Source: an uncultured Gemmatimonadota bacterium (lineage in GTDB: Bacteria > JAAXHH01). Taken from it: 64,000 nucleotides of DNA. The stretch is from NCBI GenBank assembly GCA_951812955.1, contig OX638340.1, forward strand, positions 1,440,001 to 1,504,000, given 5' to 3'. The position numbers and the translations under genes were made by a program. Position 1 is the first letter of the stretch. Every line of letters starts with the position of its first letter. This document shows positions 4,971 through 56,263 of the stretch, piece by piece. The notes below the pieces were generated by a model. The model was given only the letters and a program-made list of their open reading frames with translations. It was not told the DNA's origin and ran no database searches.

Positions 4971-6680
4971 TCACACGGCCGCCGTGCGCCGAAGCATCTC
5001 GCGTGCGTGCGAGATGGCCATGGCGTCCACTGTCTCCCCGGCCAGCATGCGCGCGATCTCCCGGATCCTGCCGTCCTCGTCCAGATGATCGACCAGCGTG
5101 ACCGACCGGCCGCGAGCCGACTGCTTGTGCACGGTAAAATGCGTACGGCCCCAGCAGGCCACCTGGTGGAGATGGGTGATGCAAAGCACCTGGTGGTCCC
5201 GGGACAGCAGCTTTAACCGGTGCCCGACCGATTCGGCGATGCGTCCACCGATGCCGATGTCCAACTCGTCGAATACCAGCGTCGGCATTCGGTCCGATTC
5301 GGCCAGAATCACCTTGAGCGCCAGCATGATGCGCGAGATCTCCCCGCCGGACGCGATGTTCGCCAACGGTTTCAGGTCCTCGCCGGAATTGGGCGATATC
5401 AGGAATTCGATCCGATCTATCCCGTGGGCGTCGACGCTGTAGCCGCGCCCGTCGATCCGCAAGGGACCTTCTTCGGCTTCCCGCCATTCGATACCGACAC
5501 GGAATCCCGTCTTCTCCATGCCCAGTTCCGCCAGTTCCGCAATCACCCTTTTCTCCAGCCTGCTCGCCACCTGTTTACGCCGGTCCGACAGGGTTTTCGC
5601 CCGTTCGGCCAGTTCTTCGCGGGCCGCTTCCACCTCCGAGCGCAAACTGCTTCGATGCTCGCCGGCCGTGTCCATCTGTTCCAGTTCTCCGGCGATACGG
5701 CCACGGTAGGCCAGGACTTCCTCGATCGTGGCGCCGTACTTGCGTTTGAGCCGACCGAGAAGGTCAAGGCGGTCCAATACCTCTTCCAGGCGCGCCGGGT
5801 TGTAGTCCACGCGGTCGCGGTAGCGCCGAAGGAAGTCGGCACAGTCGTCTAGATGGTAGCGCGCGCTCCGAATACCCTCGAGGGCCTCGCCGAGTGCGGG
5901 GTCTATGCGCTCCGCTTCCTCCAGCGAACGGATGACCCGGACCAATCCGTCGACCAGGGCGCCTTCCCCTTCAGAGAGCGCCTCGGAAGCGTCGGATGCG
6001 ATCTGGACCAACTGTTCAGCGTGCTCGAGGACGGACCGCTCCCTTTCGAGTTCTTCGTCTTCTCCCGGGGACAATTCAGCCTGGTCGAGCTCTTCCAGCT
6101 GAAAGCGGTAGAGATCTTCCCTTTCCCGGGTGGCGGCGAGACTGTCTTCCATCCGCCGCAGGGCTTCCGACCGCTCGGTGAAAAGGTGGTAGGCCTCGGC
6201 GACCCGTTGCTTCGGCGCTCGGACGTCCTCGTAACCGTCCAGAAAGTCCCGGTGCGTCCGCGGATTCAGCAGCGACTGGTGATCGTGCTGTCCGTGCAGA
6301 TCCACCAGCAGGACGCCCAGTTTCCTGAGAACGGAAACGGTGACCAGGCTGCCGTTTATCGTGCACCGGTTGCGGCCGTCGCGGGCCACCTCCCGTCGGA
6401 TGATCAGCATGCCTTCTTCCGGGTCCACGCCGATTTCCACCAGCAGGGCCTGCAACTGCGCGTCGTGCTCCCCTTCGAACAGCCCCTCGACGATGGCGGT
6501 CCGTGTGCCGCCGCGTATGGACTCGGACGCGGCCCTGTCGCCCAGAATGAGGCCCAGCGCGCCGATCAGGATGGACTTGCCGGATCCGGTTTCACCCGTG
6601 AGCACGTTCAGTCCGGAGGTGAACTCGATGTCCACCTCGTCCAGCAGCGCGTAGTTTCTGACCCTCAAGTTCGCGAGCAT
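4971..6680 (-). CDS. recN: DNA repair protein RecN
   Basis: N-term MLANLRVRNYALLDEVDIEF...GETGSGKS, coiled coil, C-terminal SMC-like signature; ATG 6680 preferred over TTG 6689. Confidence 0.92.
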   Translation of the reverse strand: MLANLRVRNYALLDEVDIEFTSGLNVLTGETGSGKSILIGALGLILGDRAASESIRGGTRTAIVEGLFEGEHDAQLQALLVEIGVDPEEGMLIIRREVARDGRNRCTINGSLVTVSVLRKLGVLLVDLHGQHDHQSLLNPRTHRDFLDGYEDVRAPKQRVAEAYHLFTERSEALRRMEDSLAATREREDLYRFQLEELDQAELSPGEDEELERERSVLEHAEQLVQIASDASEALSEGEGALVDGLVRVIRSLEEAERIDPALGEALEGIRSARYHLDDCADFLRRYRDRVDYNPARLEEVLDRLDLLGRLKRKYGATIEEVLAYRGRIAGELEQMDTAGEHRSSLRSEVEAAREELAERAKTLSDRRKQVASRLEKRVIAELAELGMEKTGFRVGIEWREAEEGPLRIDGRGYSVDAHGIDRIEFLISPNSGEDLKPLANIASGGEISRIMLALKVILAESDRMPTLVFDELDIGIGGRIAESVGHRLKLLSRDHQVLCITHLHQVACWGRTHFTVHKQSARGRSVTLVDHLDEDGRIREIARMLAGETVDAMAISHAREMLRRTAAV

Positions 6681-25731: not shown

Positions 25732-26424
25732 TTAAAACCTCACCTGGGCGCCCAAAACAACTCTTCGGGCATTACCCTGACCATAACGAAAATCTAAGAA
25801 TGGGACGTACGATATCCCCCTGAATTGGGAAACCGGCAGGTTCTCCCAAGTTTCTGACTTAAATACCCTGCCAGCCATTGCACCGGGCAGCCCGCCGACT
25901 AGTTGGCCCAGGATTGTATAACCGATCCAGTCACCTTTTCCCCAGTCTTCATCGGCAAAAGTAAGAAATACTGCCGCAGTGCCCAAACCCGCTCCAATGA
26001 GGTATCCCTTTCCGATGTTACTTTGCTTTCCTGCACTTCGTTCAAGCCGCGTAACTTCATTGTAGTTAAATCGCTGGATACCGCTCACACCACCACGGTC
26101 AAGTTCAAATCCTTCCGGGTCGACTCGAATGACACTTCCCGTCACCCGGTTGTTTTGATGAGTCACACGAATTCGCTGCCCTGAGTAACGATTGAATGCT
26201 ACCATCGGCCCTTTGGTGATCCTGTCGATCTCTTCCATGGAAAAAACAAACAAGTTCCCGTCTCGTGTTTCCAGTTTGACGGATTCACCAGGGATCTGTT
26301 CAACGATTACCCCCTTAATGATACTCCCATTCTTCAAGTACACGATGTCATCATTCTGCTGAGCTTGCACTTCCTCGGAAACACATAACAAGGCAACGAA
26401 CGCGATAGAAATAAACCGTAACAT
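25732..26424 (-). CDS. Secreted hypothetical protein with C-terminal glycine-zipper segment; lower-GC gene beside the tRNAs
   Basis: Signal peptide MLRFISIAFVALLCVSEEVQA; GYLIGAGLGTAAVFL / LGQLVGGLPGAMAG glycine zippers; TGGAGA SD before the ATG. Confidence 0.6.
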   Translation of the reverse strand: MLRFISIAFVALLCVSEEVQAQQNDDIVYLKNGSIIKGVIVEQIPGESVKLETRDGNLFVFSMEEIDRITKGPMVAFNRYSGQRIRVTHQNNRVTGSVIRVDPEGFELDRGGVSGIQRFNYNEVTRLERSAGKQSNIGKGYLIGAGLGTAAVFLTFADEDWGKGDWIGYTILGQLVGGLPGAMAGRVFKSETWENLPVSQFRGISYVPFLDFRYGQGNARRVVLGAQVRF

Positions 26425-26583
26425 AGTATCTCCATATTGGGATAGTCTCGCCTTGTTGCGAATGGGTTTAGACCTTATGTATTGTATTGACCTGGTTATA
26501 AAAAAGACTCCTTTCTCCTTAATTTGTTTTCAATATCGAACTATAGTACCGTTTCATTGTGGTGAAAAGCAATAACTGCGTTG

Positions 26584-26613
26584 TTGAAAATCTACACTCG
26601 CTTGTCGTATAAT
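26584..26613 (+). promoter_or_regulatory. Candidate sigma70 promoter (TTGAAA-18-TATAAT) in the AT-rich spacer, facing the BNR/PhyH/SDR genes
   Basis: Read directly; perfect -10 hexamer. Confidence 0.3.
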
Positions 26614-26834
26614 CCTGACTTGGACGAGAACGGACCAACCATTCTACCAGGAACAAACCACCCCAATACGCGTCGATAGGCGACTGCGAGACCTGCCCGA
26701 AGAGCTCGTTGACGCTTTCATACGGGCAGCAGTCGGAAGCACTCCCCAGGGCCGTCAGCCATCGGCGCAACGACGTGGAGGCCGGCATCTTTCATTTGTT
26801 TTGTGCAAGGTAGAAGCCGGGATTATCTTATAGC

Positions 26835-33543: not shown

Positions 33544-33927
33544 ATGGCCGGCAAAGACAGGCGGGCAAACGGTTCCGAGCCGGATGACGCGGAATTCGAA
33601 AAGCTGCTCGACGAAATGGACGAACTGGGACGGCAAGCCGATGCCCTGCGCGCGAAGGTGAATAATCTCATCGACGAGATGCGGCAGAACGACGTCACTG
33701 CGGACGAGGAAGGCACAGCGGGCGACCTCGCAGTAGACGCGGGGGATGTCTCGGCGAGCGAGGAATCGGGCGACGCACCGGACGAACAAGAAAAAGCGGA
33801 CGGCATCCCGGCAGGCGAGGGCGAGGAGGGAAACGAGGCCGGAGATGGAGACGTCGCTGTGGATACGGACAACGCGGAGGGCAAATCGGGCGGAGAAAGC
33901 CTTGGACGAGCAAGCGGACCAAATTAG
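33544..33927 (+). CDS. Hypothetical acidic low-complexity protein (coiled-coil N-terminus, D/E/G-rich tail)
   Basis: ATG with GGAG SD 7 nt upstream; composition-biased. Confidence 0.4.
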   Translation: MAGKDRRANGSEPDDAEFEKLLDEMDELGRQADALRAKVNNLIDEMRQNDVTADEEGTAGDLAVDAGDVSASEESGDAPDEQEKADGIPAGEGEEGNEAGDGDVAVDTDNAEGKSGGESLGRASGPN

Positions 33928-33939
33928 AAGTGAAACGAG

Positions 33940-33968
33940 TTGACAAATTGAAGACATGTAGGCATAAT
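33940..33968 (+). promoter_or_regulatory. Strong sigma70 promoter (TTGACA-17-CATAAT) at the left edge of the AT-rich cassette
   Basis: Consensus -35, 17-nt spacer, near-consensus -10; about 75 nt before the 34044 ORF. Confidence 0.5.
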
Positions 33969-34043
33969 TCGCTATGAGGAATGGGTAAGTCCAATCTCGT
34001 TGATGAATAAGAGTAATAATCGTAGTGATTGTAGAGGCTCAGT

Positions 34044-34526
34044 ATGATGGCTACACAGGAAATTGAAAGTGCCAATCATATCATAAGCAAAATCGACGAG
34101 TTTCCTGATTACTTTTTAAGACAATACAGTAATGTTCAAAATGAAGCGTTACTTTCAAAAAAACTTGAATACACCGTTCGGTCGTTTAACAAGAGACTGG
34201 AAATCGCATATGAGATCTCTCATGATTTTATAGAATTCTTAAAGCAAGATGGAATAATCGATCCAGAGCAGCCGTTAGTCGGGTGTGTGCAAGAGTACGA
34301 AAAGGTTTGCTCTGAACTCTATCTATATTTCAACCAAATCCCCTCAGACTCTTTTCATTTCCCGCATATCGTTGAAAGATTAACAAAAATACTAAAAGAC
34401 TATGCTGGTAAATTCCAGGATTTACGCTGGGAGGTTATGATCCATAACGGGCTTCTTGCACCTCGGCATACAAATACATTTTCAGGTGGAGATGAGTTTG
34501 AGCAAATTTTAAAACAACGAAATTAA
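34044..34526 (+). CDS. Hypothetical 160-aa protein (low GC), upstream partner of the RelE/ParE-like toxin; candidate atypical antitoxin
   Basis: Clean ORF in a 38% GC segment; stop TAA one nt before the next ATG; no HTH/RHH recognised. Confidence 0.55.
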   Translation: MMATQEIESANHIISKIDEFPDYFLRQYSNVQNEALLSKKLEYTVRSFNKRLEIAYEISHDFIEFLKQDGIIDPEQPLVGCVQEYEKVCSELYLYFNQIPSDSFHFPHIVERLTKILKDYAGKFQDLRWEVMIHNGLLAPRHTNTFSGGDEFEQILKQRN

Positions 34527-34527
34527 C

Positions 34528-34830
34528 ATGAATTACCCCTTCGACGTTCCATCCGAATTCGTAGAACCAGATGATTCCTTCCTTGAGCAACACCAAAAAC
34601 TTCCCTCGTCTTTAAAACAAAATTTCCAAAGATTGTTAGATCAATTCAGAAATCACCGTTTAACACCCGGTCGCAGATTAAAAAAAATCGGTCCTAATCT
34701 GTTCTCGGTAAGATTAAACAGAAAATACCGTTTCGTATATGAATTGCTTTATATAGATGGAAAAGCTGTTGGAAGGCCTCTGGCCGTAGGAAACCATGAT
34801 GAAACATACGACTCGGCAAGTCGGGTTTAA
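34528..34830 (+). CDS. RelE/ParE-family toxin-like protein
   Basis: C-terminal KKIGPNLFSVRLNRKYRFVYELLYIDGKAVGRPLAVGNHDETY matches the RelE/ParE pattern (KLxG..yElRi..YRiiY.....v.il.igHR..vY). Confidence 0.7.
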   Translation: MNYPFDVPSEFVEPDDSFLEQHQKLPSSLKQNFQRLLDQFRNHRLTPGRRLKKIGPNLFSVRLNRKYRFVYELLYIDGKAVGRPLAVGNHDETYDSASRV

Positions 34831-34941
34831 TCAATGAAACGTGTTTCCCCCGTCCTCCCGGTCATAACCAACTAGACTAACATCGGGTTTGGCCGTTGGT
34901 CTTCTATTGTGTGGACTCATCATCTCGAACGGGTTTTAATC

Positions 34942-50266: not shown

Positions 50267-52207
50267 CTACCGGATCACGGCACGGCCGTAGTAGTAGGGC
50301 AGGGCCTGGGCGGAGGGACGGTAGGACCAGGCCAGGCGGGCCTTGCCGATGTTTGCCCCGGGACCGGCATCGGTCTCGTCGCCGTCGTAGATCACCAGGT
50401 TGAAGCCGATGGTCTCTCCCGCCGGCGGCGCGGCGCCACCGGGCATTTCGGACCAGGGGATGGCGGTCTCGATCACGTATCCGTAGTCGGTGAACCTGGA
50501 CGCCACCCGCATGCCCGGCGCCGTCTTCTCGATAACGCCCTGCCGGGCGTCGGCGTCCCGGGCCGCCCTGGGCTCGCGGCCCGCTGTCGTCCCTGGAAAG
50601 ATGCCTGCCTTGAACACCGTCAGCGTGTTGTCGCTCCGCCCGGACGGGTCGACGCAGATCTCCACGGCGTCCGATCGCCAGTGGCCCTTGACGTCGTCCG
50701 GGGCGATGTTGCAGACCACCGCGTCGTCCCGCACGTCCACGGCGACGTAAAGGTTCGCCCGGTCATAGGCGACGCGGAACACCGCGCTGCAGTCGTCATC
50801 GCCGCCCGGTAAGGATCCCGACCATATGTGGCCCGACGTAATGGCGTGGGTACCGATCCCCTCCCAGTCGGCGAGATCGCCGTCGATCCGCATGGGACCC
50901 TCGGCAACCGCCAGATCCAGGACAGGCAACACGTCGATCATGCCCCCCTCTTCAAGGATCCGACCCGACGTGTCGGCCGTCAGCCGCACCGGGTAGCTTC
51001 CCTGCGCCACGTGATCCGGCACGTCCACGGTGAATGGGACCATCGTCCGGTCCTGGCCCGCAACCTCAAAGTCCGCCTCCAGGGGATCGTCTGTCCACCC
51101 ATCGGGAAGATCGAGCCTCACCCGGCCCGCCGCGCCCTCGGGAGTCCGGCTGGCTGCCTCTATCTCCAGGGTGCCCGTCATGCCTGACCCGATGGACAGC
51201 GCGGCCGGAAGCAGGCCCGCGACCCACGACACCTGGTGTTCCTCGGCCCAGCGGCGGTACCTGACGATGTCCGATCGGGGCACCATACCGATGGTCAGTG
51301 GCTCGGACGAAGGCGGCGGCCCCAGGACGATCCCGGGATCGCGCGGCCCCTCCAGGCCGCCCAGGAGGGTCTTCAAACCATCCGGCGACGGCGGCACAAG
51401 AGTCTTCACGAGCAGGAACGACTCCGCCCGGGCGCTGGCCGGAGGAAGCGTCGCCCTCCGATCGAAGCCCTGCGACCTGAAGTTGCGCAGGGCCAGGGAC
51501 TTGATCTCCGCGTAGCTCAGGAACCGGCTCGGTGAGATATCGCCCGACGGTATGGAAATCGAACCCTCCCGACGGGTGTTGTAGTAGAGTTTAGCCGGCT
51601 GCCAGGTCCGCAGGAACTCATCGCCGATCTGTTCCGGGAAACGCCCGGGATCGGCAGCGGCGGAAAAGGCCTCCGTCGCGAGCCGGGCCGCGGCCTGGTG
51701 ATGGCCGTGAGTGCCCGGTCCGGGCCACATGGTCACGATGACGTCCGGGCGGAGCAGGCGGACAAGCCGCACGATCCTGCCCAGTGTGTCCTCATGGCCC
51801 CAGACATCGTACGTGGCCTTGTCGCTCAGTGTGTAGAAGAAATCGGTCTTGTCCAGGAAATAGACCAGGTCCACCCCGTACTCGGCAGCAGACCGGCGTA
51901 TCTCGGCCTCTCGCAGTATGCCCAGCGAGGGACCGAGTTCCCGCCCGATGGCATTGCCGCCGCCCTCACCCCGCGTGATGAGCACGATGCCCGCCTTTGC
52001 GCCGCCGTCCAGGACCTCGCGGGCAAAGGTGGCCGTTACGCCGCTTTCATCGTCGGGATGGGCGCCCACGTAGAGCAGGTCTACTTTCAGCAAGTGATCG
52101 GATCGCATCTGTTCTATGGACTGTGCGGAGACAGATCCGGATAGCAGCGGGAGAAGAAGGATCAGGCCGAACCATCTTCCCGTAAGGAAGCAAGCGCCAC
52201 GCATCAT
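50267..52207 (-). CDS. Secreted PIG-L/LmbE-family N-acetylglucosaminyl deacetylase fused to a CBM9-like carbohydrate-binding domain
   Basis: Signal peptide from ATG 52207 (MMRGACFLTGRWFGLILLLPLLSGSVSA), LYVGAHPDDESG motif, C-terminal CBM9-like domain; the 78 upstream codons of the ORF-track model are treated as non-coding. Confidence 0.8.
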   Translation of the reverse strand: MMRGACFLTGRWFGLILLLPLLSGSVSAQSIEQMRSDHLLKVDLLYVGAHPDDESGVTATFAREVLDGGAKAGIVLITRGEGGGNAIGRELGPSLGILREAEIRRSAAEYGVDLVYFLDKTDFFYTLSDKATYDVWGHEDTLGRIVRLVRLLRPDVIVTMWPGPGTHGHHQAAARLATEAFSAAADPGRFPEQIGDEFLRTWQPAKLYYNTRREGSISIPSGDISPSRFLSYAEIKSLALRNFRSQGFDRRATLPPASARAESFLLVKTLVPPSPDGLKTLLGGLEGPRDPGIVLGPPPSSEPLTIGMVPRSDIVRYRRWAEEHQVSWVAGLLPAALSIGSGMTGTLEIEAASRTPEGAAGRVRLDLPDGWTDDPLEADFEVAGQDRTMVPFTVDVPDHVAQGSYPVRLTADTSGRILEEGGMIDVLPVLDLAVAEGPMRIDGDLADWEGIGTHAITSGHIWSGSLPGGDDDCSAVFRVAYDRANLYVAVDVRDDAVVCNIAPDDVKGHWRSDAVEICVDPSGRSDNTLTVFKAGIFPGTTAGREPRAARDADARQGVIEKTAPGMRVASRFTDYGYVIETAIPWSEMPGGAAPPAGETIGFNLVIYDGDETDAGPGANIGKARLAWSYRPSAQALPYYYGRAVIR

Positions 52208-52365
52208 TTCAAGTCGAATCGAAGGGAATGGGCGGAACCCGAAGTGAAGTCTAACCGCATCGAACCGTGGTCGTATACGCCCCGGTTGGACCGCGATCTC
52301 ATTGCGATCTAGATACGTCCCATCCCGTAGTTGTGTCAAGGCTTTTGGTTTAACGACCACAATGA

Positions 52366-52403
52366 AACGGCCGCGGTGGAACGGCCGCGGTGGAACGGCC
52401 GCG
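52366..52403. repeat. 14-bp tandem repeat (aacggccgcggtgg x2.7) in the divergent promoter region
   Basis: Read directly. Confidence 0.85.
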
Positions 52404-52572
52404 TATGGGTTGATATCCGGACCGTTCGTATACATAATCATAATTAAGGCGCGGAATCACCCGATTGCGAACGAGCATATATCATGCAAGATCAAACCTG
52501 AGTACGAGTCTCTCGTCTCAACAATATGATGAACTACGAGGAGACTTTCCAACCAAACGGAGGATGTGCAAC

Positions 52573-53583
52573 ATGGGCGATCTTATTGCCGTTCATCCCG
52601 ACTTCGACGGTGTCTGGCCCTTTGCCGCCGGCCACTTCCATACCCTATGGCCCGAAGCGGAATTCATACGCCTGACCCACGGGGACGAGCGTCCCCTCGG
52701 CGATGTCGCGATGGACGCGGGCCGGGTGAAGCGGCTGGCCGCTCTCGGTGTGCCGGTGACCGTCGCATGTCTGAAACGGTTCGGCGCGCTGCGTGAAGCG
52801 ACTTTTCAGGGAGCCTGCGGCCGGGGGCCGGACGAGGATTGCGGCACGTACCTGGCCGGGGCCGGCGTCGCCGTTTACGACCATCCGAGCGAGGGTTTCT
52901 GGTCGCAGTCCGTGGCGGAATTCGGCCTGGCGCTGACGCTGTGCGGATTGCGCCGGATTCCCCAGTTGCATCGGCAGATTATCCACGACCAGGCGCCCTG
53001 GGACTACGAACCGCCTGGCGGCCGGGGCCGCCCGGGGGAAAGGGGCCAGCAGTTCGGCGACGATCCGGCCTTTGCCAACGGGACACTGGCCGGCAAACGG
53101 ATGCGGATCGTGGGGGCCGGCAACATCGCCAGCAGGTTCGCGAGCTTCGCGTCGATGCTGGGCGCCGACGTGGCTGCCTGGGACCCCTACGCCTCCGAAC
53201 CGGGCTTTCACCGTGCCGGTTCGCGCCGGGTCTACCACCTGGATCAATTGGTCTCGGACGCAGAGGTGTTCGCGCCCATGGTGCCGCTCACTGAATCAAC
53301 GCACGGCGTGGTCACGGCCGGACACGTCGACGCGCTACCCCGCGGCTGCCTCGTGGTGCTGGTAACCCGGGCACTGGTCTGCGACATGGACGCGATCCGG
53401 CGGCGGGTCCTGGCCGACGAACTGAGCCTGGCGGCGGACGTGTGGAACGAAGAACCCCTGTCCCTGGACGATCCACTGCTCGGTCGCTTCAACGTCGTGC
53501 ACACGCCGCACAACGCGGGGCGCACCATCGACGCGAACAGGTCCTGGGCGGAGAAACTGGCCGCGCAGTTCAGGCCGGGCTAA
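52573..53583 (+). CDS. D-isomer-specific 2-hydroxyacid dehydrogenase family protein
   Basis: NAD-binding GAGNIA, catalytic region HTPHNAG; ATG 52573 with GGAGG SD. Confidence 0.88.
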   Translation: MGDLIAVHPDFDGVWPFAAGHFHTLWPEAEFIRLTHGDERPLGDVAMDAGRVKRLAALGVPVTVACLKRFGALREATFQGACGRGPDEDCGTYLAGAGVAVYDHPSEGFWSQSVAEFGLALTLCGLRRIPQLHRQIIHDQAPWDYEPPGGRGRPGERGQQFGDDPAFANGTLAGKRMRIVGAGNIASRFASFASMLGADVAAWDPYASEPGFHRAGSRRVYHLDQLVSDAEVFAPMVPLTESTHGVVTAGHVDALPRGCLVVLVTRALVCDMDAIRRRVLADELSLAADVWNEEPLSLDDPLLGRFNVVHTPHNAGRTIDANRSWAEKLAAQFRPG

Positions 53584-53778
53584 GGTTCCGCGCAGGGAGA
53601 ATGGAACAGCATTTTAATACTGGTTTTTATTGACTGTTGACGTATATTAAGATGCATATAAGTATTTTAACAGATGTCGGCTCGCGCGGAGTGCAGGCGA
53701 ACGCAGCGGACCGGACCTCTTCCACGGGCGATATTTCAAACAGAATGTCCCCCGTTGTCCTGGTATTAAGGTTAAAAG

Positions 53779-53964
53779 ATGAAAGATAGAACTTCTGATT
53801 TCGATCCGGAAAAAGGTATTCCGGAGACCGAGGAAGAAGAAATAGACTACGACGCCCGGAATACGAAAGAACTATTGAAAAGCGGTTTTATTTCCAAAGC
53901 CGTATATGATGAAATACAAGTACAACTGATAAGGCGTAGGGAGGCGCTGAGCCGAGAGAAGTAG
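53779..53964 (+). CDS. Small hypothetical protein (61 aa) in an AT-rich spacer
   Basis: ORF with AAGG 5 nt upstream; weak. Confidence 0.3.
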   Translation: MKDRTSDFDPEKGIPETEEEEIDYDARNTKELLKSGFISKAVYDEIQVQLIRRREALSREK

Positions 53965-54049
53965 GACCTGGTTCGAGGAATCGTGATCGAATTCGGAGGT
54001 TCGCTGCCGATAGGGGTAGCGCTTTCGGTCCTGCACGCCACGCTGGTCT

Positions 54050-54556
54050 TCAGTGCCCGTTCCGTTCCAATGTTCCTGCCTTGACCTCAACCTTTCCGAT
54101 CTCGTTTCCGAAGTACTGAATCATCCTCAGGGCTGCGTCCACCTCGTCCGACTGCACGAACTCCCATTGGTCTGATTCCTCGATGCCGCGCTCCGCCTCG
54201 ATGCCGCGCTCCGCAAGGAGATTGCGGAATCGATCCGCCACCGCCCGCCCCCTGCTGCTCAAATCATACATCCAGAGATCGGGATCGGCGGGATCCATGC
54301 TGCTCCGCACCATGTGACCGCGTTCCAGTCCGCACATCGCGGATTTCGTGCTCGAATGCGCACAGTCCAGGTGCCTGGAAATGGCGCTCATGGGTAGCGC
54401 GCCTAATCGCTCAAGTGCAAACAGGGCCCGGATCCGGAGGATCGTCTCATCCCGGCGCTCCAGTTCGTCTTCGCGGTGGGACAGGAACCGGAAGGCCAGA
54501 CGCTCCACCACTCCCAAAAAACGGCGTTCCAGTTCACTTCTGTGCCAATCGGACAT
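54050..54556 (-). CDS. MarR-family transcriptional regulator
   Basis: Winged HTH LGALPMSAISRHLDCAHSSTKSAMCGLERGHMVRS; AGGTGG SD. Confidence 0.8.
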   Translation of the reverse strand: MSDWHRSELERRFLGVVERLAFRFLSHREDELERRDETILRIRALFALERLGALPMSAISRHLDCAHSSTKSAMCGLERGHMVRSSMDPADPDLWMYDLSSRGRAVADRFRNLLAERGIEAERGIEESDQWEFVQSDEVDAALRMIQYFGNEIGKVEVKAGTLERNGH

Positions 54557-54632
54557 GTGTCCACCTGTTCATGTAGATGAAATCTGTATCCGGTCGATGG
54601 ACTCGAAATCCGGTACGGGTATGACAGGCAGG

Positions 54633-54815
54633 TTATCTGCCGATTGTCCCATTGCCGATTCGCCGCTCTATCTTTTCCACTGCGTGCAGCAGTTCGCGAA
54701 CAAAAGTCCTCAAGTCTTTCATCTCGCGTTCAATCTTGAGTACGTGTGCCAGGATCGCCTCCTGGTTCTTCTCCAGCACGCGCATGTATTCGTACTTTTT
54801 CATCTGCTGTTCCAC
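54633..54815 (-). CDS. Small basic helical protein (60 aa)
   Basis: GTG start with GAGGA SD 8 nt upstream; 76 nt upstream of MarR on the same strand. Confidence 0.4.
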   Translation of the reverse strand: MEQQMKKYEYMRVLEKNQEAILAHVLKIEREMKDLRTFVRELLHAVEKIERRIGNGTIGR

Positions 54816-54930
54816 GCCTTGGTCCTCGCTTCCAGTTTGATGAGAAATACCGACTGCTTACAGTCACATCGGCATCATTTGCCTGATTACAGTTCTGCGC
54901 AGTAAACGTGCGTGGCGCCGGTGTCTGCCT

Positions 54931-54969
54931 ATAACAAAAAGCCCCGGTATCACCCAGGGGCCCGGGGCT
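54931..54969 (-). terminator. Rho-independent terminator (minus strand): stem AGCCCCGG/CCGGGGCT followed by TTTTTGTTAT
   Basis: 8-bp GC stem plus U-tract on the minus strand. Confidence 0.55.
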
Positions 54970-55331
54970 TGATGCTACCTGACCTGCATATGCACGGCCG
55001 TCGTCCGATGCTTACGTCGTCCGATGCTTAATGGTGGCAGGCTGCACGCCGCCTATAGTGGCCGTGTTTCCTGCTTGAAGCGGACGAGAATTCGTTCCAA
55101 GGTGCCTGGAACCGATGAGCTAGGCGGCTTCGTTTACATCGCATGGCTCCCATGAACGTTACCCAGCTCGATCGGATTGTTTGACAACTGCACAAATTGC
55201 ACACACGCTAAGTGGTAGATATACGTTTATGACAACAATATCAAGAACAAGTATAGTAATGTCAATAGTAAATTACGTTATAACTGTTATTTCGTTAAAT
55301 AGTAGTTTAATTTAAGGAGAGTAATAAAACA

Positions 55332-55370
55332 ATGAAATACTCTGATTTGCGATTCTACAGGCTTTACTAG
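55332..55370 (+). other. 12-codon mini-ORF (MKYSDLRFYRLY) with strong RBS AAGGAGAG inside a 30%-GC segment
   Basis: AAGGAGAG-9 nt-ATG; the only well-initiated ORF in the AT-rich stretch. Confidence 0.25.
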
Positions 55371-55747
55371 CTTCAAAAACAAGGAATGGTGATACTCTAG
55401 TGACCATTTAATCCATTTTAAGATAATATTGTTTATATATAACTTTTCTTTTTATACGTCGTTCTAACCTGACCAATCTCCAAATCCGGTATGGTTTTCC
55501 TTTTTCGAATGCACAGGTTTCAATAACCCGTACTGCCCTATACTGCTTGACATTGGCATCGTTTACGGCGTAGTTTATTCCGGAATTTGTTGCGAATGGA
55601 AATTGCTGGTCGGGGGCAGTCAAGAAACGAAATACAGGATGGGAATTGGCGACCGAAATGGTAAACAACGCCTCGATCAGGGAATCAATAAACGGAGGAT
55701 AGCATCCCCGGATTCCTTCGTATCACCGGCCTGTTTAACTTAGGTGA

Positions 55748-56263
55748 GTGATCGTGCAGGTAAACAACCTGAGAGATCTTTCAGATCGCTTCGTGACCGT
55801 AGTGAGACAGTTGTGCCGTTTGACATACATCGCAAGACTGAATGAGTGGCAGGGGCTGGACATGACCGTGCCTCAGATCAAGACGTTGATTCTGATCGAG
55901 CACTTGGGGCCGCTCAGGATGGGCGCGATAGCCAGTTACCTGGGCAGCGGCCTTTCCACTACGACCACGATAGTGGATCGCCTGGTGAAAAAGCAGCTGG
56001 TTCAACGGGATTCGGATCCGAACGATCGAAGAGTCGTGATATGCGAACTGACTTCCAAGGGTCGGGATGCGACCGAGTTGTTCTGGGATCACCTGAAGAC
56101 GAAAGCGCTGATGCTTTCCGATCAGTGGGAAGTGGATCAATTCGAAAAGGTCGTCCAGGCGCTTGAACTGATCTGGGGTACCGAGGAAGCGCTTCAATCG
56201 GCATCTGATTCCGCTCCGCCCATCGTCAGCCAATCTCCCGGCGCCAAGTCATCCGCGCTTTAA
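55748..56263 (+). CDS. MarR-family transcriptional regulator
   Basis: wHTH LGPLRMGAIASYLGSGLSTTTTIVDRLVKKQLVQRDSDPNDRRV; GTG start after GGTGA. Confidence 0.8.
   Translation: MIVQVNNLRDLSDRFVTVVRQLCRLTYIARLNEWQGLDMTVPQIKTLILIEHLGPLRMGAIASYLGSGLSTTTTIVDRLVKKQLVQRDSDPNDRRVVICELTSKGRDATELFWDHLKTKALMLSDQWEVDQFEKVVQALELIWGTEEALQSASDSAPPIVSQSPGAKSSAL

What the first reader, a model, noticed from the sequence alone, without database searches (positions are those of the whole stretch)
54931..55750. 30%-GC segment between two MarR genes with orphan terminator, tandem duplication and RBS-equipped mini-ORF
A clean minus-strand intrinsic terminator (54931-54969) has no annotated gene upstream of it for more than 400 nt, implying an unannotated minus-strand transcript (sRNA or small protein) in 54970-55400. 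Next to it is a 17-bp tandem duplication (gtcgtccgatgcttac, 54997-55030). It is followed by a strongly AT-rich stretch containing a 12-codon ORF (MKYSDLRFYRLY) with an AAGGAGAG RBS, which is hard to explain by chance. The whole block is flanked by two MarR regulators and a 60-aa SD-equipped basic protein (54633-54815). This could be a small regulatory or leader-peptide locus, or the remnant of an acquired element.
Basis: seen in the sequence. Interest (0 to 1): 0.5.

Follow-up and report, generated by a model that had tools for sequence, protein, structure and literature searches.

The report
Leftover ends of a deleted gene
The AT-rich stretch with a lone terminator is most likely the surviving promoter, leader and terminator of a surface-protein gene that related genomes still carry and this one has lost, lying in the control region next to a MarR regulator gene; this is ordinary genome decay, not a new regulatory locus.

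Summary
The described features are all in the sequence: a minus-strand hairpin plus U-tract (54931-54969), an exact 16-bp x2 tandem repeat (54999-55030), the lowest-GC stretch of the window (about 55200-55470), and a 12-codon ORF with an AAGGAG upstream.

Twenty related contigs explain them.
- **Terminator side:** window 54933-55117 matches the 3' flank of a 477-aa collagen-repeat/Ig-like lipoprotein gene in two relatives.
- **Promoter side:** window 55130-55592 matches that gene's promoter and leader, an AT-rich spacer and the MarR promoter.
- **Missing gene:** the 1.65-kb coding part is absent here, with only 12 bp between the two flanks. That leaves a promoter-to-terminator unit of about 300 nt with no gene.
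- **Other lineages:** they carry different nested deletions of the same interval.
- **AT-rich spacer:** it sits between the two divergent promoters in nearly all relatives. It evolves faster than synonymous sites, and its GC is near the value mutation bias alone would give.
- **Mini-ORF:** its ATG and ribosome-binding site exist only in this genome. Such a pair arises in 47% of shuffles.
- **Tandem repeat:** copy number varies from 1 to 3 among relatives.
- **Database searches:** no Rfam, plasmid or phage match.

The finding is ordinary. Whether the gene-less transcript has any residual role is untested.

The parts
54931..54969 (-). Intrinsic (Rho-independent) terminator: stem GCCCCGG/CCGGGGC followed by UUUUUGUUAU
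   Evidence: Identity to L002 is 0.975. The hairpin and U-tract are kept in window, L014, L002, L021, L027, L003 and L004. In L003/L004 it lies about 280 nt downstream of the collagen-repeat gene.
54970..55117 (-). Relic of the 3' untranslated region of the lost gene; includes the invariant CAGGCACCTTGGAACG (minus-strand reading)
   Evidence: blastn matches window 54933-55117 to L003 3658-3826 (66%, E 8e-14) and L004 3665-3833; alignment. Absent in L027. Two compensatory pairs in one predicted hairpin, but no net covariation support.
54999..55030 (.). 16-bp tandem repeat, two exact copies (CGTCGTCCGATGCTTA); copy number varies between lineages
   Evidence: Two diverged copies in L001, L014 and L002; three in L021-23; one unit in L027, L003 and L004.
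55118..55129 (.). Junction where relatives carry about 1.65 kb: part of the leader, the 477-aa CDS and the proximal 3' UTR
   Evidence: L003 3827-5476 has no counterpart in the window. tblastn finds no copy of the protein anywhere in the 64 kb.
55130..55230 (-). Relic of the 5' leader of the minus-strand unit; holds the conserved DNA motif TGTGCAATTTGTGCA (55189-55203)
   Evidence: Homologous to the leader upstream of the collagen-repeat gene in L003/L004 and upstream of the 60-aa gene in L006/L024. The motif lies at a near-constant distance from the MarR start within each group. No conserved RNA fold: consensus energy -1 kcal/mol.
55237..55265 (-). Promoter-like site of the minus-strand unit: TTGACA, 17-nt spacer, GATATT
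   Evidence: 10 of 12. Homologous to L003 TTGACA-16-TAGATT at 5616-5589. By reading the alignments, the TTGACA is kept in L014, L002, L021, L027, L003 and L004. Function is inferred.
55240..55460 (.). AT-rich spacer (about 25-32% GC) between the two divergent promoters; apparently unconstrained DNA
   Evidence: A 21-35% GC block lies at the same place in L003, L004, L006, L008, L009, L024, L027 and L029. Identity to L002 is 0.75-0.81 against 0.89-0.93 at four-fold sites. Substitution spectrum.
55332..55370 (+). 12-codon ORF MKYSDLRFYRLY with AAGGAGAG at 55314-55321: a chance, lineage-specific ORF
   Evidence: The ATG is GCG in L001/L014 and ACG in L002; the SD is ATGAAGGG in all three. Chance expectation is 0.47 per region.
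55547..55576 (+). Promoter of the MarR gene: TTGACA, 18-nt spacer, TAGTTT (TAGAAT in relatives)
   Evidence: The -35 box is invariant in all ten aligned genomes. The L003 site scores 11 of 12. Block 55455-55580 is 0.94-0.96 identical in L002/L001.
55754..56263 (+). MarR-family regulator gene, divergent from the minus-strand unit
   Evidence: Pfam MarR 3.3e-15; NCBIfam MarR-type hits; start codon.
54633..54815 (-). 60-aa helical basic protein gene immediately downstream of the terminator; strongly conserved, function unknown
   Evidence: The stretch VLEKNQEAILAHVLKIERE is unchanged in the window, L002, L021, L027 and L024; L027 and L024 share a longer 24-residue stretch (YVRVLEKNQEAILAHVLKIERE plus flanking residues). 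Identity to L002 is 0.967, with second codon positions 1.000. In L006 and L024 it sits directly behind the same leader.
54050..54556 (-). Diverged MarR paralogue, probably co-transcribed with the 60-aa gene
   Evidence: blastp to the right-hand MarR gives E 3e-16. Weak PDB matches to DtxR/IdeR (4e-4) and MarR (0.03). The 3' end is deleted in L002.

Best explanation
The segment is the control region between two divergent transcription units, and it contains the shell of a lost gene.

- **Plus strand.** A sigma-70-type promoter (55547-55576) drives the MarR gene.
- **Minus strand.** About 280 bp away, a second promoter (55265-55237) once drove a collagen-repeat/Ig-like lipoprotein gene that ended at the terminator at 54931-54969.
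- **The deletion.** In the lineage of this window an internal deletion of about 1.65 kb removed the distal leader, the whole coding sequence and the first part of the 3' UTR. The proximal leader (55130-55230) was fused to the distal 3' UTR and terminator (54931-55117).
- **What remains.** A predicted gene-less unit of about 300 nt, which explains the 'orphan' terminator.
- **AT-rich core.** It is the spacer between the two promoters. It looks like unconstrained DNA that has drifted to the composition set by the GC-to-AT mutation bias of this genome.
- **Tandem repeat.** It is a slippage product whose copy number varies between lineages.
- **Mini-ORF.** It is a chance product of recent substitutions in this one genome.

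Shown: the homologies, the absence of the CDS, the conservation pattern and the substitution spectrum. Inferred: promoter activity, the direction of the event (deletion here rather than insertion elsewhere), and the lack of function of the leftover RNA.
For: 1. **Two-sided homology around a missing CDS.** Window 54933-55117 matches L003 3658-3826 and L004 3665-3833. Window 55130-55592 matches L003 5477-5942. The intervening L003 gene (3977-5410, minus) has a lipoprotein-type signal with a cysteine, Collagen (1.4e-15) and a sub-threshold Big_2 match (0.0016, 18.8 bits against the 22.8 cut-off).
2. **Promoters at homologous positions.** Window TTGACA-17-GATATT corresponds to L003 TTGACA-16-TAGATT. 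Window TTGACA-18-TAGTTT corresponds to L003 TTGACA-18-TAGAAT, which scores 11 of 12.
3. **A deletion series in the same interval.**
   - L006 and L024 have the same leader running straight into the 60-aa gene.
   - L004 keeps the last ~65 nt of the 60-aa gene right after its terminator, and L008 keeps ~30 nt.
   - L027 keeps the terminator and leader but lacks the 3' element.
   - L005 and L026 have only 240-350 bp between the dehydrogenase gene and MarR.
4. **No sign of coding or strong constraint.** ORFs are frameshifted in L002. Identity to L002 is 0.89 for the 3' relic and leader, against 0.89-0.93 at four-fold sites. It is 0.75-0.81 for the AT-rich core, 0.975 for the terminator and 0.944 for the MarR promoter block.
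5. **The AT-rich spacer is old and compositional, not conserved in sequence.** It is present in eight further lineages. Among L003-L009 the upstream region is 65-77% identical (91% for the close pair L003/L004) while third codon positions are 80-92% identical.
6. **Mutation spectrum.** Lineage-specific changes in flanking coding DNA are 148 GC>AT against 49 AT>GC, implying an equilibrium GC of about 0.36. In the spacer the counts are 13 against 19, on about 54 GC and 129 AT sites, implying about 0.38. Observed GC is 0.30. The spacer changes about 3.6 times faster than the flanking coding DNA.
7. **Mini-ORF.** The start codon and SD are unique to the window. Chance expectation is 47%.
8. **Repeat copy number** is 1, 2 or 3 in different lineages.
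9. **No external matches.** No Rfam family, no plasmid or phage similarity, no second copy in the window.
Against: - **Direction not rooted.** The closest non-syntenic paralogues (L015-L020) give no outgroup. An insertion of the gene into a pre-existing short unit in the ancestor of L003/L004 is therefore not formally excluded.
- **Retention across lineages.** The terminator is retained in every lineage that keeps the 60-aa/MarR-paralogue pair behind it, including L027, which lost the rest. It is also more conserved than neutral. Both points hint at a present-day role.
- **Hints of constraint in the relic.** A 16-nt stretch of the 3' relic is invariant between the two deep lineages. One predicted hairpin shows two compensatory pairs. 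The fold z-score is about -2.
- **Small counts.** The substitution counts in the spacer are small.
- **No expression data.** Promoter and terminator activity are not demonstrated.
Confidence: 0.7

Rival explanations
1. The relic now serves as a long 5' leader with an attenuating or insulating terminator for the downstream 60-aa gene and MarR paralogue. Transcription from the 55265-55237 promoter mostly stops at 54931, and the operon is expressed by read-through, or the terminator shields it from that promoter.
For: - In L006 and L024 the very same promoter and leader drive the 60-aa gene directly.
- No consensus promoter was found between the terminator and the 60-aa gene on the minus strand.
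- The terminator is kept, and is more conserved than neutral, wherever that gene pair follows it, even in L027.
Against: - The terminator and 3' element are homologous to the end of another gene in L003/L004, so no special origin is needed.
- No conserved alternative fold exists in the leader.
- Most of the sequence between promoter and terminator is dispensable in L027.
- A non-consensus promoter in 54816-54930 cannot be excluded.
Confidence: 0.2
2. The ~300-nt minus-strand RNA, or its 3' part, is a functional small RNA, comparable to sRNAs derived from 3' UTRs, that outlived the coding sequence.
For: - A conserved promoter and terminator bracket it.
- A 16-nt stretch is invariant, and there are two compensatory pairs in a predicted hairpin between deep lineages.
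- The fold z-score is about -2.
Against: - Divergence equals that at four-fold sites.
- The element is deleted in L027 and absent from L006, L008, L009 and L024.
- The covariation term is zero or positive.
- There is no Rfam match.
- A metagenome-wide pattern scan found it only in this clade.
Confidence: 0.12
3. The collagen-repeat gene was inserted in the L003/L004 lineage into an older short non-coding unit, and the window shows the ancestral state.
For: The tree cannot be rooted with the available loci. The number of events is similar under both scenarios.
Against: - The insertion would have to land exactly between a promoter/leader and a terminator and create a working mRNA.
- The 65-nt distal leader that the window lacks is shared by L003/L004 (before the collagen-repeat gene) and L006 (before the 60-aa gene), so it is older than either arrangement in that group.
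- Every other variant in the interval is explained by deletion alone.
Confidence: 0.15
4. The segment is a leader-peptide or small-protein locus built around the 12-codon ORF.
For: AAGGAGAG lies 10-12 nt upstream of an ATG (read directly from the sequence).
Against: - The start codon and SD are absent in L001, L014 and L002. L021 is about 88% identical across 53585-55760, but its mini-ORF region was not inspected.
- Chance expectation is 47%.
- The ORF is on the plus strand, with no downstream gene or terminator it could control before the MarR promoter.
Confidence: 0.02
5. The low-GC block is a remnant of horizontally acquired DNA, such as an IS, a prophage or a plasmid fragment.
For: GC is 30 points below the genome average.
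Against: - An AT-rich block lies at the same position in eight further lineages.
- No terminal inverted repeats, no transposase-like ORF, no plasmid or phage similarity, no other copy in the window.
- The composition matches the mutational equilibrium.
Confidence: 0.03

Closest known systems
Rho-independent (intrinsic) transcription terminators
   Same: A GC-rich 7-9-bp stem followed directly by a U-tract on the minus strand, with the stem maintained across seven diverged lineages.
   Different: In this genome it no longer follows a coding sequence. The loop is long (14 nt) in the window clade.
Divergent MarR-regulator/target-gene control regions (for example marR/marC or ohrR/ohrA; from general knowledge of the family)
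   Same: A MarR gene is transcribed divergently from a neighbouring unit, with both promoters in one intergenic region. Conserved short DNA motifs lie near both promoters.
   Different: The promoters are about 280 bp apart, separated by unconstrained AT-rich DNA, rather than overlapping. No operator was identified or tested. The original target gene is gone here.
Gene-loss relics under the deletional bias of bacterial genomes (general principle, e.g. Mira, Ochman and Moran 2001; cited from memory)
   Same: A nested series of deletions in one interval among close lineages. Flanking non-coding pieces of a gene survive without its CDS.
   Different: The deletion is clean. Both transcription signals remain, so the shell may still be transcribed.
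3'-UTR-derived small RNAs (e.g. CpxQ, SroC; from general knowledge)
   Same: A terminator-proximal 3' UTR segment with some conserved sequence that could exist as an RNA of its own.
   Different: No evidence of processing, of a seed region or of selective constraint. The segment is lost in sister lineages. It applies only to the novel-case reading.
Leader-peptide attenuators (e.g. trpL-type; from general knowledge)
   Same: A short ORF with an SD in an untranslated region near a terminator.
   Different: The ORF is on the opposite strand from the terminator. It is not conserved even among >90% identical genomes, and it has no run of regulatory codons.

Membership tests
Intrinsic terminator | GC-rich hairpin immediately followed by a U-rich tract on the transcribed strand | tested here: met
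   GCCCCGG...CCGGGGC followed by UUUUUGUUAU on the minus strand.
Intrinsic terminator | Hairpin maintained in relatives | tested here: met
   the stem pairs in all 7 lineages; 0.975 identity to L002, against about 0.90 at neutral sites.
Intrinsic terminator | Transcripts actually end there | not testable with these tools
   Needs Term-seq or 3'-end mapping.
Relic of a deleted gene | Both flanks homologous to the two flanks of an intact gene in relatives, at the same genomic position | tested here: met
   Synteny (dehydrogenase ... MarR, tRNA-Glu/Gln, HD-domain gene).
Relic of a deleted gene | Polarity: the gene was present in the common ancestor | tested here: inconclusive
   The deletion series and the shared distal leader favour loss. 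No syntenic outgroup was found.
Known RNA family (Rfam) | Covariance-model match at or near the gathering score | tested here: not met
   only tRNA-Glu and tRNA-Gln in and around the region, with E-values allowed up to 10 (window) and up to 1 (relatives).
Structured cis-regulatory RNA / sRNA | Conserved secondary structure with covariation, and divergence below neutral | tested here: inconclusive
   Leader: no consensus fold. 3' relic: 2-5 compensatory pairs from only two deep lineages, covariation term +0.39. Divergence is about that of four-fold sites.
Leader peptide / small protein gene | Start codon, SD and reading frame conserved in close relatives | tested here: not met
   ATG becomes GCG or ACG, and AAGGAGAG becomes ATGAAGGG.
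Mobile-element remnant | Similarity to transposase, phage or plasmid sequences, terminal repeats, or patchy presence at this site | tested here: not met
   The AT-rich block is present at the site in eight further lineages.
MarR family (left-hand gene 54050-54556) | Significant similarity to MarR-family winged-helix regulators | tested here: met
   Pfam and NCBIfam give no hit. blastp to the adjacent Pfam-confirmed MarR gives E 3e-16 over 145 aa. Weak PDB MarR and DtxR hits.
Sigma-70-type promoter (both divergent sites) | -35 and -10 hexamers at 16-18 nt spacing, conserved in position among relatives | tested here: met
   Activity itself is not testable here.

The most novel reading that the evidence does not exclude
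A promoter-leader-3'UTR-terminator shell that has lost its coding sequence has been kept in at least two diverged lineages because it still works. It would act either as a ~300-nt regulatory RNA or as a terminator-based insulator or attenuator. In the second case it sets the expression of the very conserved 60-aa protein and its MarR-like partner from the promoter that in other lineages drives the 60-aa gene directly.
Probability: 0.15. Interest if true: 0.35.

Novelty: new member of a known kind. Interest (0 to 1): 0.12.

Why it matters
- **For annotation.** It shows that an 'orphan' terminator plus a striking low-GC block need not mean a hidden gene, an sRNA or foreign DNA. Here they are the surviving signals of a deleted gene, plus neutral spacer DNA whose composition shows the underlying GC-to-AT mutation bias of a 61% GC genome.
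- **For these uncultured lineages.** In these Gemmatimonadetes/Latescibacterota-labelled genomes, the interval next to this MarR gene is a small hotspot. A collagen-repeat surface lipoprotein, a conserved 60-aa protein and a MarR paralogue are variably kept or lost there.
- **Overall.** Nothing here challenges current knowledge.

Tried and rejected
- **Rfam.** Permissive thresholds on the window region and on four relatives gave only tRNAs.
- **Family libraries.** Pfam, NCBIfam, PHROGs and PADLOC gave nothing significant for the small ORFs, the 60-aa protein and the 61-aa ORF.
- **Exact-protein look-up** of the window's MarR: not on record.
- **Metagenome pattern scan** with the invariant 3'-element motif: a single contig (L014) of the same clade. 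The element is not widespread and is not found in other contexts.
- **Outgroup attempt.** MarR homologues of 63-69% identity (P0011-P0013) lie in unrelated small-ORF cassettes, so they could not root the indel.
- **Leader fold.** A consensus fold of the leader across ten lineages showed no structure.
- **Plasmid and phage searches** at blastn sensitivity: no match.
- **Self-comparison** for repeats of the segment elsewhere in the window: none.
- **Literature search** for collagen-like proteins in related symbiont lineages: nothing usable.
- **Candidate ORFs.** The 86-aa (55408-55668, minus), 58-aa (55028-55204, minus) and 43-aa (55024-55155, plus) ORFs were rejected as genes. Indels shift their frames in L002, and the 86-aa ORF overlaps the conserved MarR promoter.
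Full report
**1. What is in the sequence**

The region 54816-55753 is a 938-bp gap between two oppositely oriented gene sets. On the minus strand lie a 60-aa gene (54633-54815) and a 168-aa gene (54050-54556). On the plus strand lies a MarR gene.

- **Terminator.** A minus-strand hairpin and U-tract lie at 54931-54969. The inverted arms are 54932-47 and 54962-77, and the inner hairpin plus CTTTTTGTTA was found.
- **Tandem repeat.** It is an exact repeat of a 16-bp unit, not 17 bp, at 54999-55014 and 55015-55030.
- **Low GC.** GC is 0.30 over 55200-55499. The lowest 200-nt GC of the whole 64 kb (0.25, against 0.607 overall) is here.
- **Mini-ORF.** The ORF runs from ATG 55332 to TAG 55370, with AAGGAGAG at 55314-55321.

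The right-hand gene is a Pfam MarR (3.3e-15). The left-hand gene gets no Pfam or NCBIfam hit. It aligns to the right-hand MarR at 31% identity over 145 aa, E 3e-16, and weakly to DtxR/IdeR and MarR structures. 'Two MarR genes' is therefore acceptable. The 60-aa protein has pI 9.5. Rfam finds only tRNA-Glu and tRNA-Gln downstream of MarR.

**2. Relatives**

A genome scan with the MarR protein returned nine syntenic loci from MAGs labelled Gemmatimonadetes, Latescibacterota or 'bacterium'. L001 and L002 encode MarR proteins 98% and 94% identical to the window's. L003-L009 encode proteins 74-79% identical.

Further loci came from three sources:
- A metagenome pattern scan added L014, which is 95% identical over 7.5 kb.
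- A protein search and contig look-ups added L021-23, with the same layout as the window.
- The same look-ups added L027/28, L024/25, L026 and L029.

Homologues at 63-69% identity (L015-L020) sit in unrelated cassettes and gave no outgroup.

In all syntenic loci, a 2-hydroxyacid dehydrogenase gene ends on the left and MarR starts on the right. The interval between them ranges from 240 bp to 2.5 kb.

**3. The orphan terminator**

Sensitive blastn and alignments give two homologies:
- Window 54933-55117 matches L003 3658-3826 and L004 3665-3833.
- Window 55130-55592 matches L003 5477-5942.

Between these two blocks, L003 and L004 carry a minus-strand gene (L003 3977-5410). It encodes a 477-aa protein with an N-terminal lipoprotein-type signal (…VMGC), collagen triple-helix repeats (1.4e-15) and a sub-threshold Big_2 match (0.0016, 18.8 bits against the 22.8 cut-off).

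In the window only 12 bp (55118-55129) separate the two homologous blocks. tblastn finds no copy of the protein in the 64 kb. The terminator is therefore the terminator that follows this gene in relatives. The window retains the proximal leader and the distal 3' UTR but not the coding sequence.

The hairpin and U-tract are kept in seven lineages. The terminator is 0.975 identical to L002, where neutral sites are about 0.90.

**4. Promoters**

The scan found a minus-strand TTGACA-17-GATATT at 55265-55237. L003 has TTGACA-16-TAGATT at the homologous place, 5616-5589. By reading the alignments, the TTGACA is retained in L014, L002, L021, L027, L003 and L004.

The MarR promoter is TTGACA-18-TAGTTT at 55547-55576. 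Its -35 box is invariant in all ten aligned genomes. The -10 is TAGAAT in six of the seven distant relatives, and the L003 site scores 11 of 12.

If the minus-strand promoter is active, the predicted transcript runs from about 55230 to about 54931, roughly 300 nt, with no conserved ORF. Indels shift the frames of the 58-aa, 86-aa and 43-aa ORFs in L002. Gene callers annotated nothing there in L021-23.

**5. A deletion series**

The same leader precedes different things in different lineages:
- **L003/L004:** the collagen-repeat gene.
- **L006 and L024:** the 60-aa gene directly.
- **Window clade:** the relic.

Other variants fit the same picture:
- L004 retains the last ~65 nt of the 60-aa gene immediately after its terminator, and L008 retains ~30 nt.
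- L027 shares the window's gene layout. It keeps the terminator and leader but lacks the 3' element and part of the leader.
- L005 and L026 have lost nearly everything.

The simplest history starts from an ancestor with the order promoter, leader, collagen-repeat gene, terminator, 60-aa gene, dehydrogenase. Independent deletions then followed. Polarity is inferred, because the tree could not be rooted.

**6. The AT-rich core**

A 21-35% GC block of 300-400 bp lies between the two promoters in L003, L004, L006, L008, L009, L024, L027 and L029. It is therefore old and not a recent import.

Its sequence is not conserved:
- Identity to L002 is 0.75-0.81, against 0.89-0.93 at four-fold sites.
- Among L003-L009 the upstream region is 65-77% identical (91% for the close pair L003/L004), while third codon positions are 80-92% identical.

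Polarised lineage-specific substitutions point to mutational equilibrium:
- In flanking coding DNA there are 148 GC>AT and 49 AT>GC changes, implying an equilibrium GC of about 0.36.
- In the spacer there are 13 and 19 changes, on about 54 GC and 129 AT sites, implying about 0.38. Observed GC is 0.30.
- The spacer changes about 3.6 times faster than the flanking coding DNA.

The counts are small, but they fit unconstrained DNA at mutational equilibrium. There is no plasmid or phage similarity and no second copy in the window.

**7. Mini-ORF and tandem repeat**

In L001 and L014 the ATG is GCG. In L002 it is ACG. In all three the AAGGAGAG is ATGAAGGG. An SD-like pentamer ahead of an ATG occurs in 47% of block-shuffled versions of the region. 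The ORF is a chance product.

The 16-bp unit is present once in L027, L003 and L004. It is present twice, diverged, in L001, L014 and L002, and three times in L021-23. It is a slippage-prone repeat in non-coding DNA.

**8. Is the leftover RNA functional?**

Evidence is weak either way.
- **Against:** divergence of the 3' relic and leader (0.89) equals that at four-fold sites. L027 deleted the 3' element. The leader has no consensus fold. The covariation term is nil.
- **For:** a 16-nt stretch is invariant between the deep lineages. One hairpin has two compensatory pairs. Fold z-scores are about -2. The terminator is retained wherever the 60-aa/MarR-paralogue pair follows it.

A present-day role as an attenuator or insulator for that pair is the main rival, at about 0.2. 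No consensus promoter was found between the terminator and the 60-aa gene.

**9. Verdict**

The features are real. The explanation is ordinary: the control region of a divergent MarR gene contains the shell of a deleted lipoprotein gene, neutral AT-rich spacer DNA, a variable short tandem repeat and a spurious mini-ORF. Confidence is 0.7 and interest is 0.12.

Noticed in passing
window 54633-54815 (-): The 60-aa basic helical protein is far more conserved than its surroundings. The stretch VLEKNQEAILAHVLKIERE is unchanged in the window, L002, L021, L027 and L024, lineages whose MarR is only 78-83% identical to the window's. No family was found in Pfam, NCBIfam, PHROGs or PADLOC.
   Followed up: partly
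window 54851-54893: Two near-palindromic boxes, ACTGTAAGCAGT and ACTGTAATCAGG (minus-strand reading), lie 29 bp apart upstream of the 60-aa gene. In L002 both carry the same T>C change. They could be an operator of the adjacent MarR paralogue.
   Followed up: no
window 55189-55203: A conserved DNA motif, TGTGCAATTTGTGCA (minus-strand reading), lies in the leader at a near-constant distance from the MarR start: 563-576 nt in the window group and 466-470 nt in the L003 group. It is conserved although the leader has no RNA fold, so it is a candidate regulator-binding site.
   Followed up: partly
window 55580-55675: The 5' UTR of the MarR gene is about 95 nt longer in the window clade, L027 and L024 than in L003-L009. 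The extra segment has no other copy in the window.
   Followed up: no
L002 about 4487 (window 53984-54225 missing): L002 lacks 242 bp that include the 3' end of the MarR paralogue, so that gene is truncated there. L029 keeps only a fragment of it. The paralogue appears dispensable.
   Followed up: partly
L002 about 5500-5520 (window 55256): An 11-bp duplication in L002 duplicates the -35 TTGACA of the minus-strand promoter. The proximal copy keeps a 17-nt spacing to the -10.
   Followed up: no
L003-L008, about 90 nt upstream of the MarR -35 (e.g. L003 about 5850): A perfect palindrome, TGTGAT-N6-ATCACA, is conserved in L003, L004, L006, L007 and L008. It is absent from the window clade. It is a possible regulator site lost here.
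   Followed up: no
L015-L020: MarR homologues of 63-69% identity occur in a recurring same-strand cassette. Its order is a secreted ~165-172-aa protein (45-49% identical between loci), then a small protein, MarR, and in L017-L020 an HSDR_N-like protein. Two copies occur in one MAG (GCA_009840045.1).
   Followed up: partly
window 26315-26679, 33893-34842 and 53728-53934: These are the other low-GC stretches of the window, with minimum 200-nt GC of 0.355, 0.32 and 0.385. The last overlaps the 61-aa ORF 53779-53964, which has a weak SHOCT-like hit.
   Followed up: no
window 52465-53583 and flanks: Lineage-specific substitutions in the flanking coding DNA (window about 51000-54632) are strongly biased: 148 GC>AT against 49 AT>GC over four genomes. 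The implied equilibrium GC is about 0.36 in a 61% GC genome, so the high GC must be maintained by selection or biased gene conversion.
   Followed up: partly
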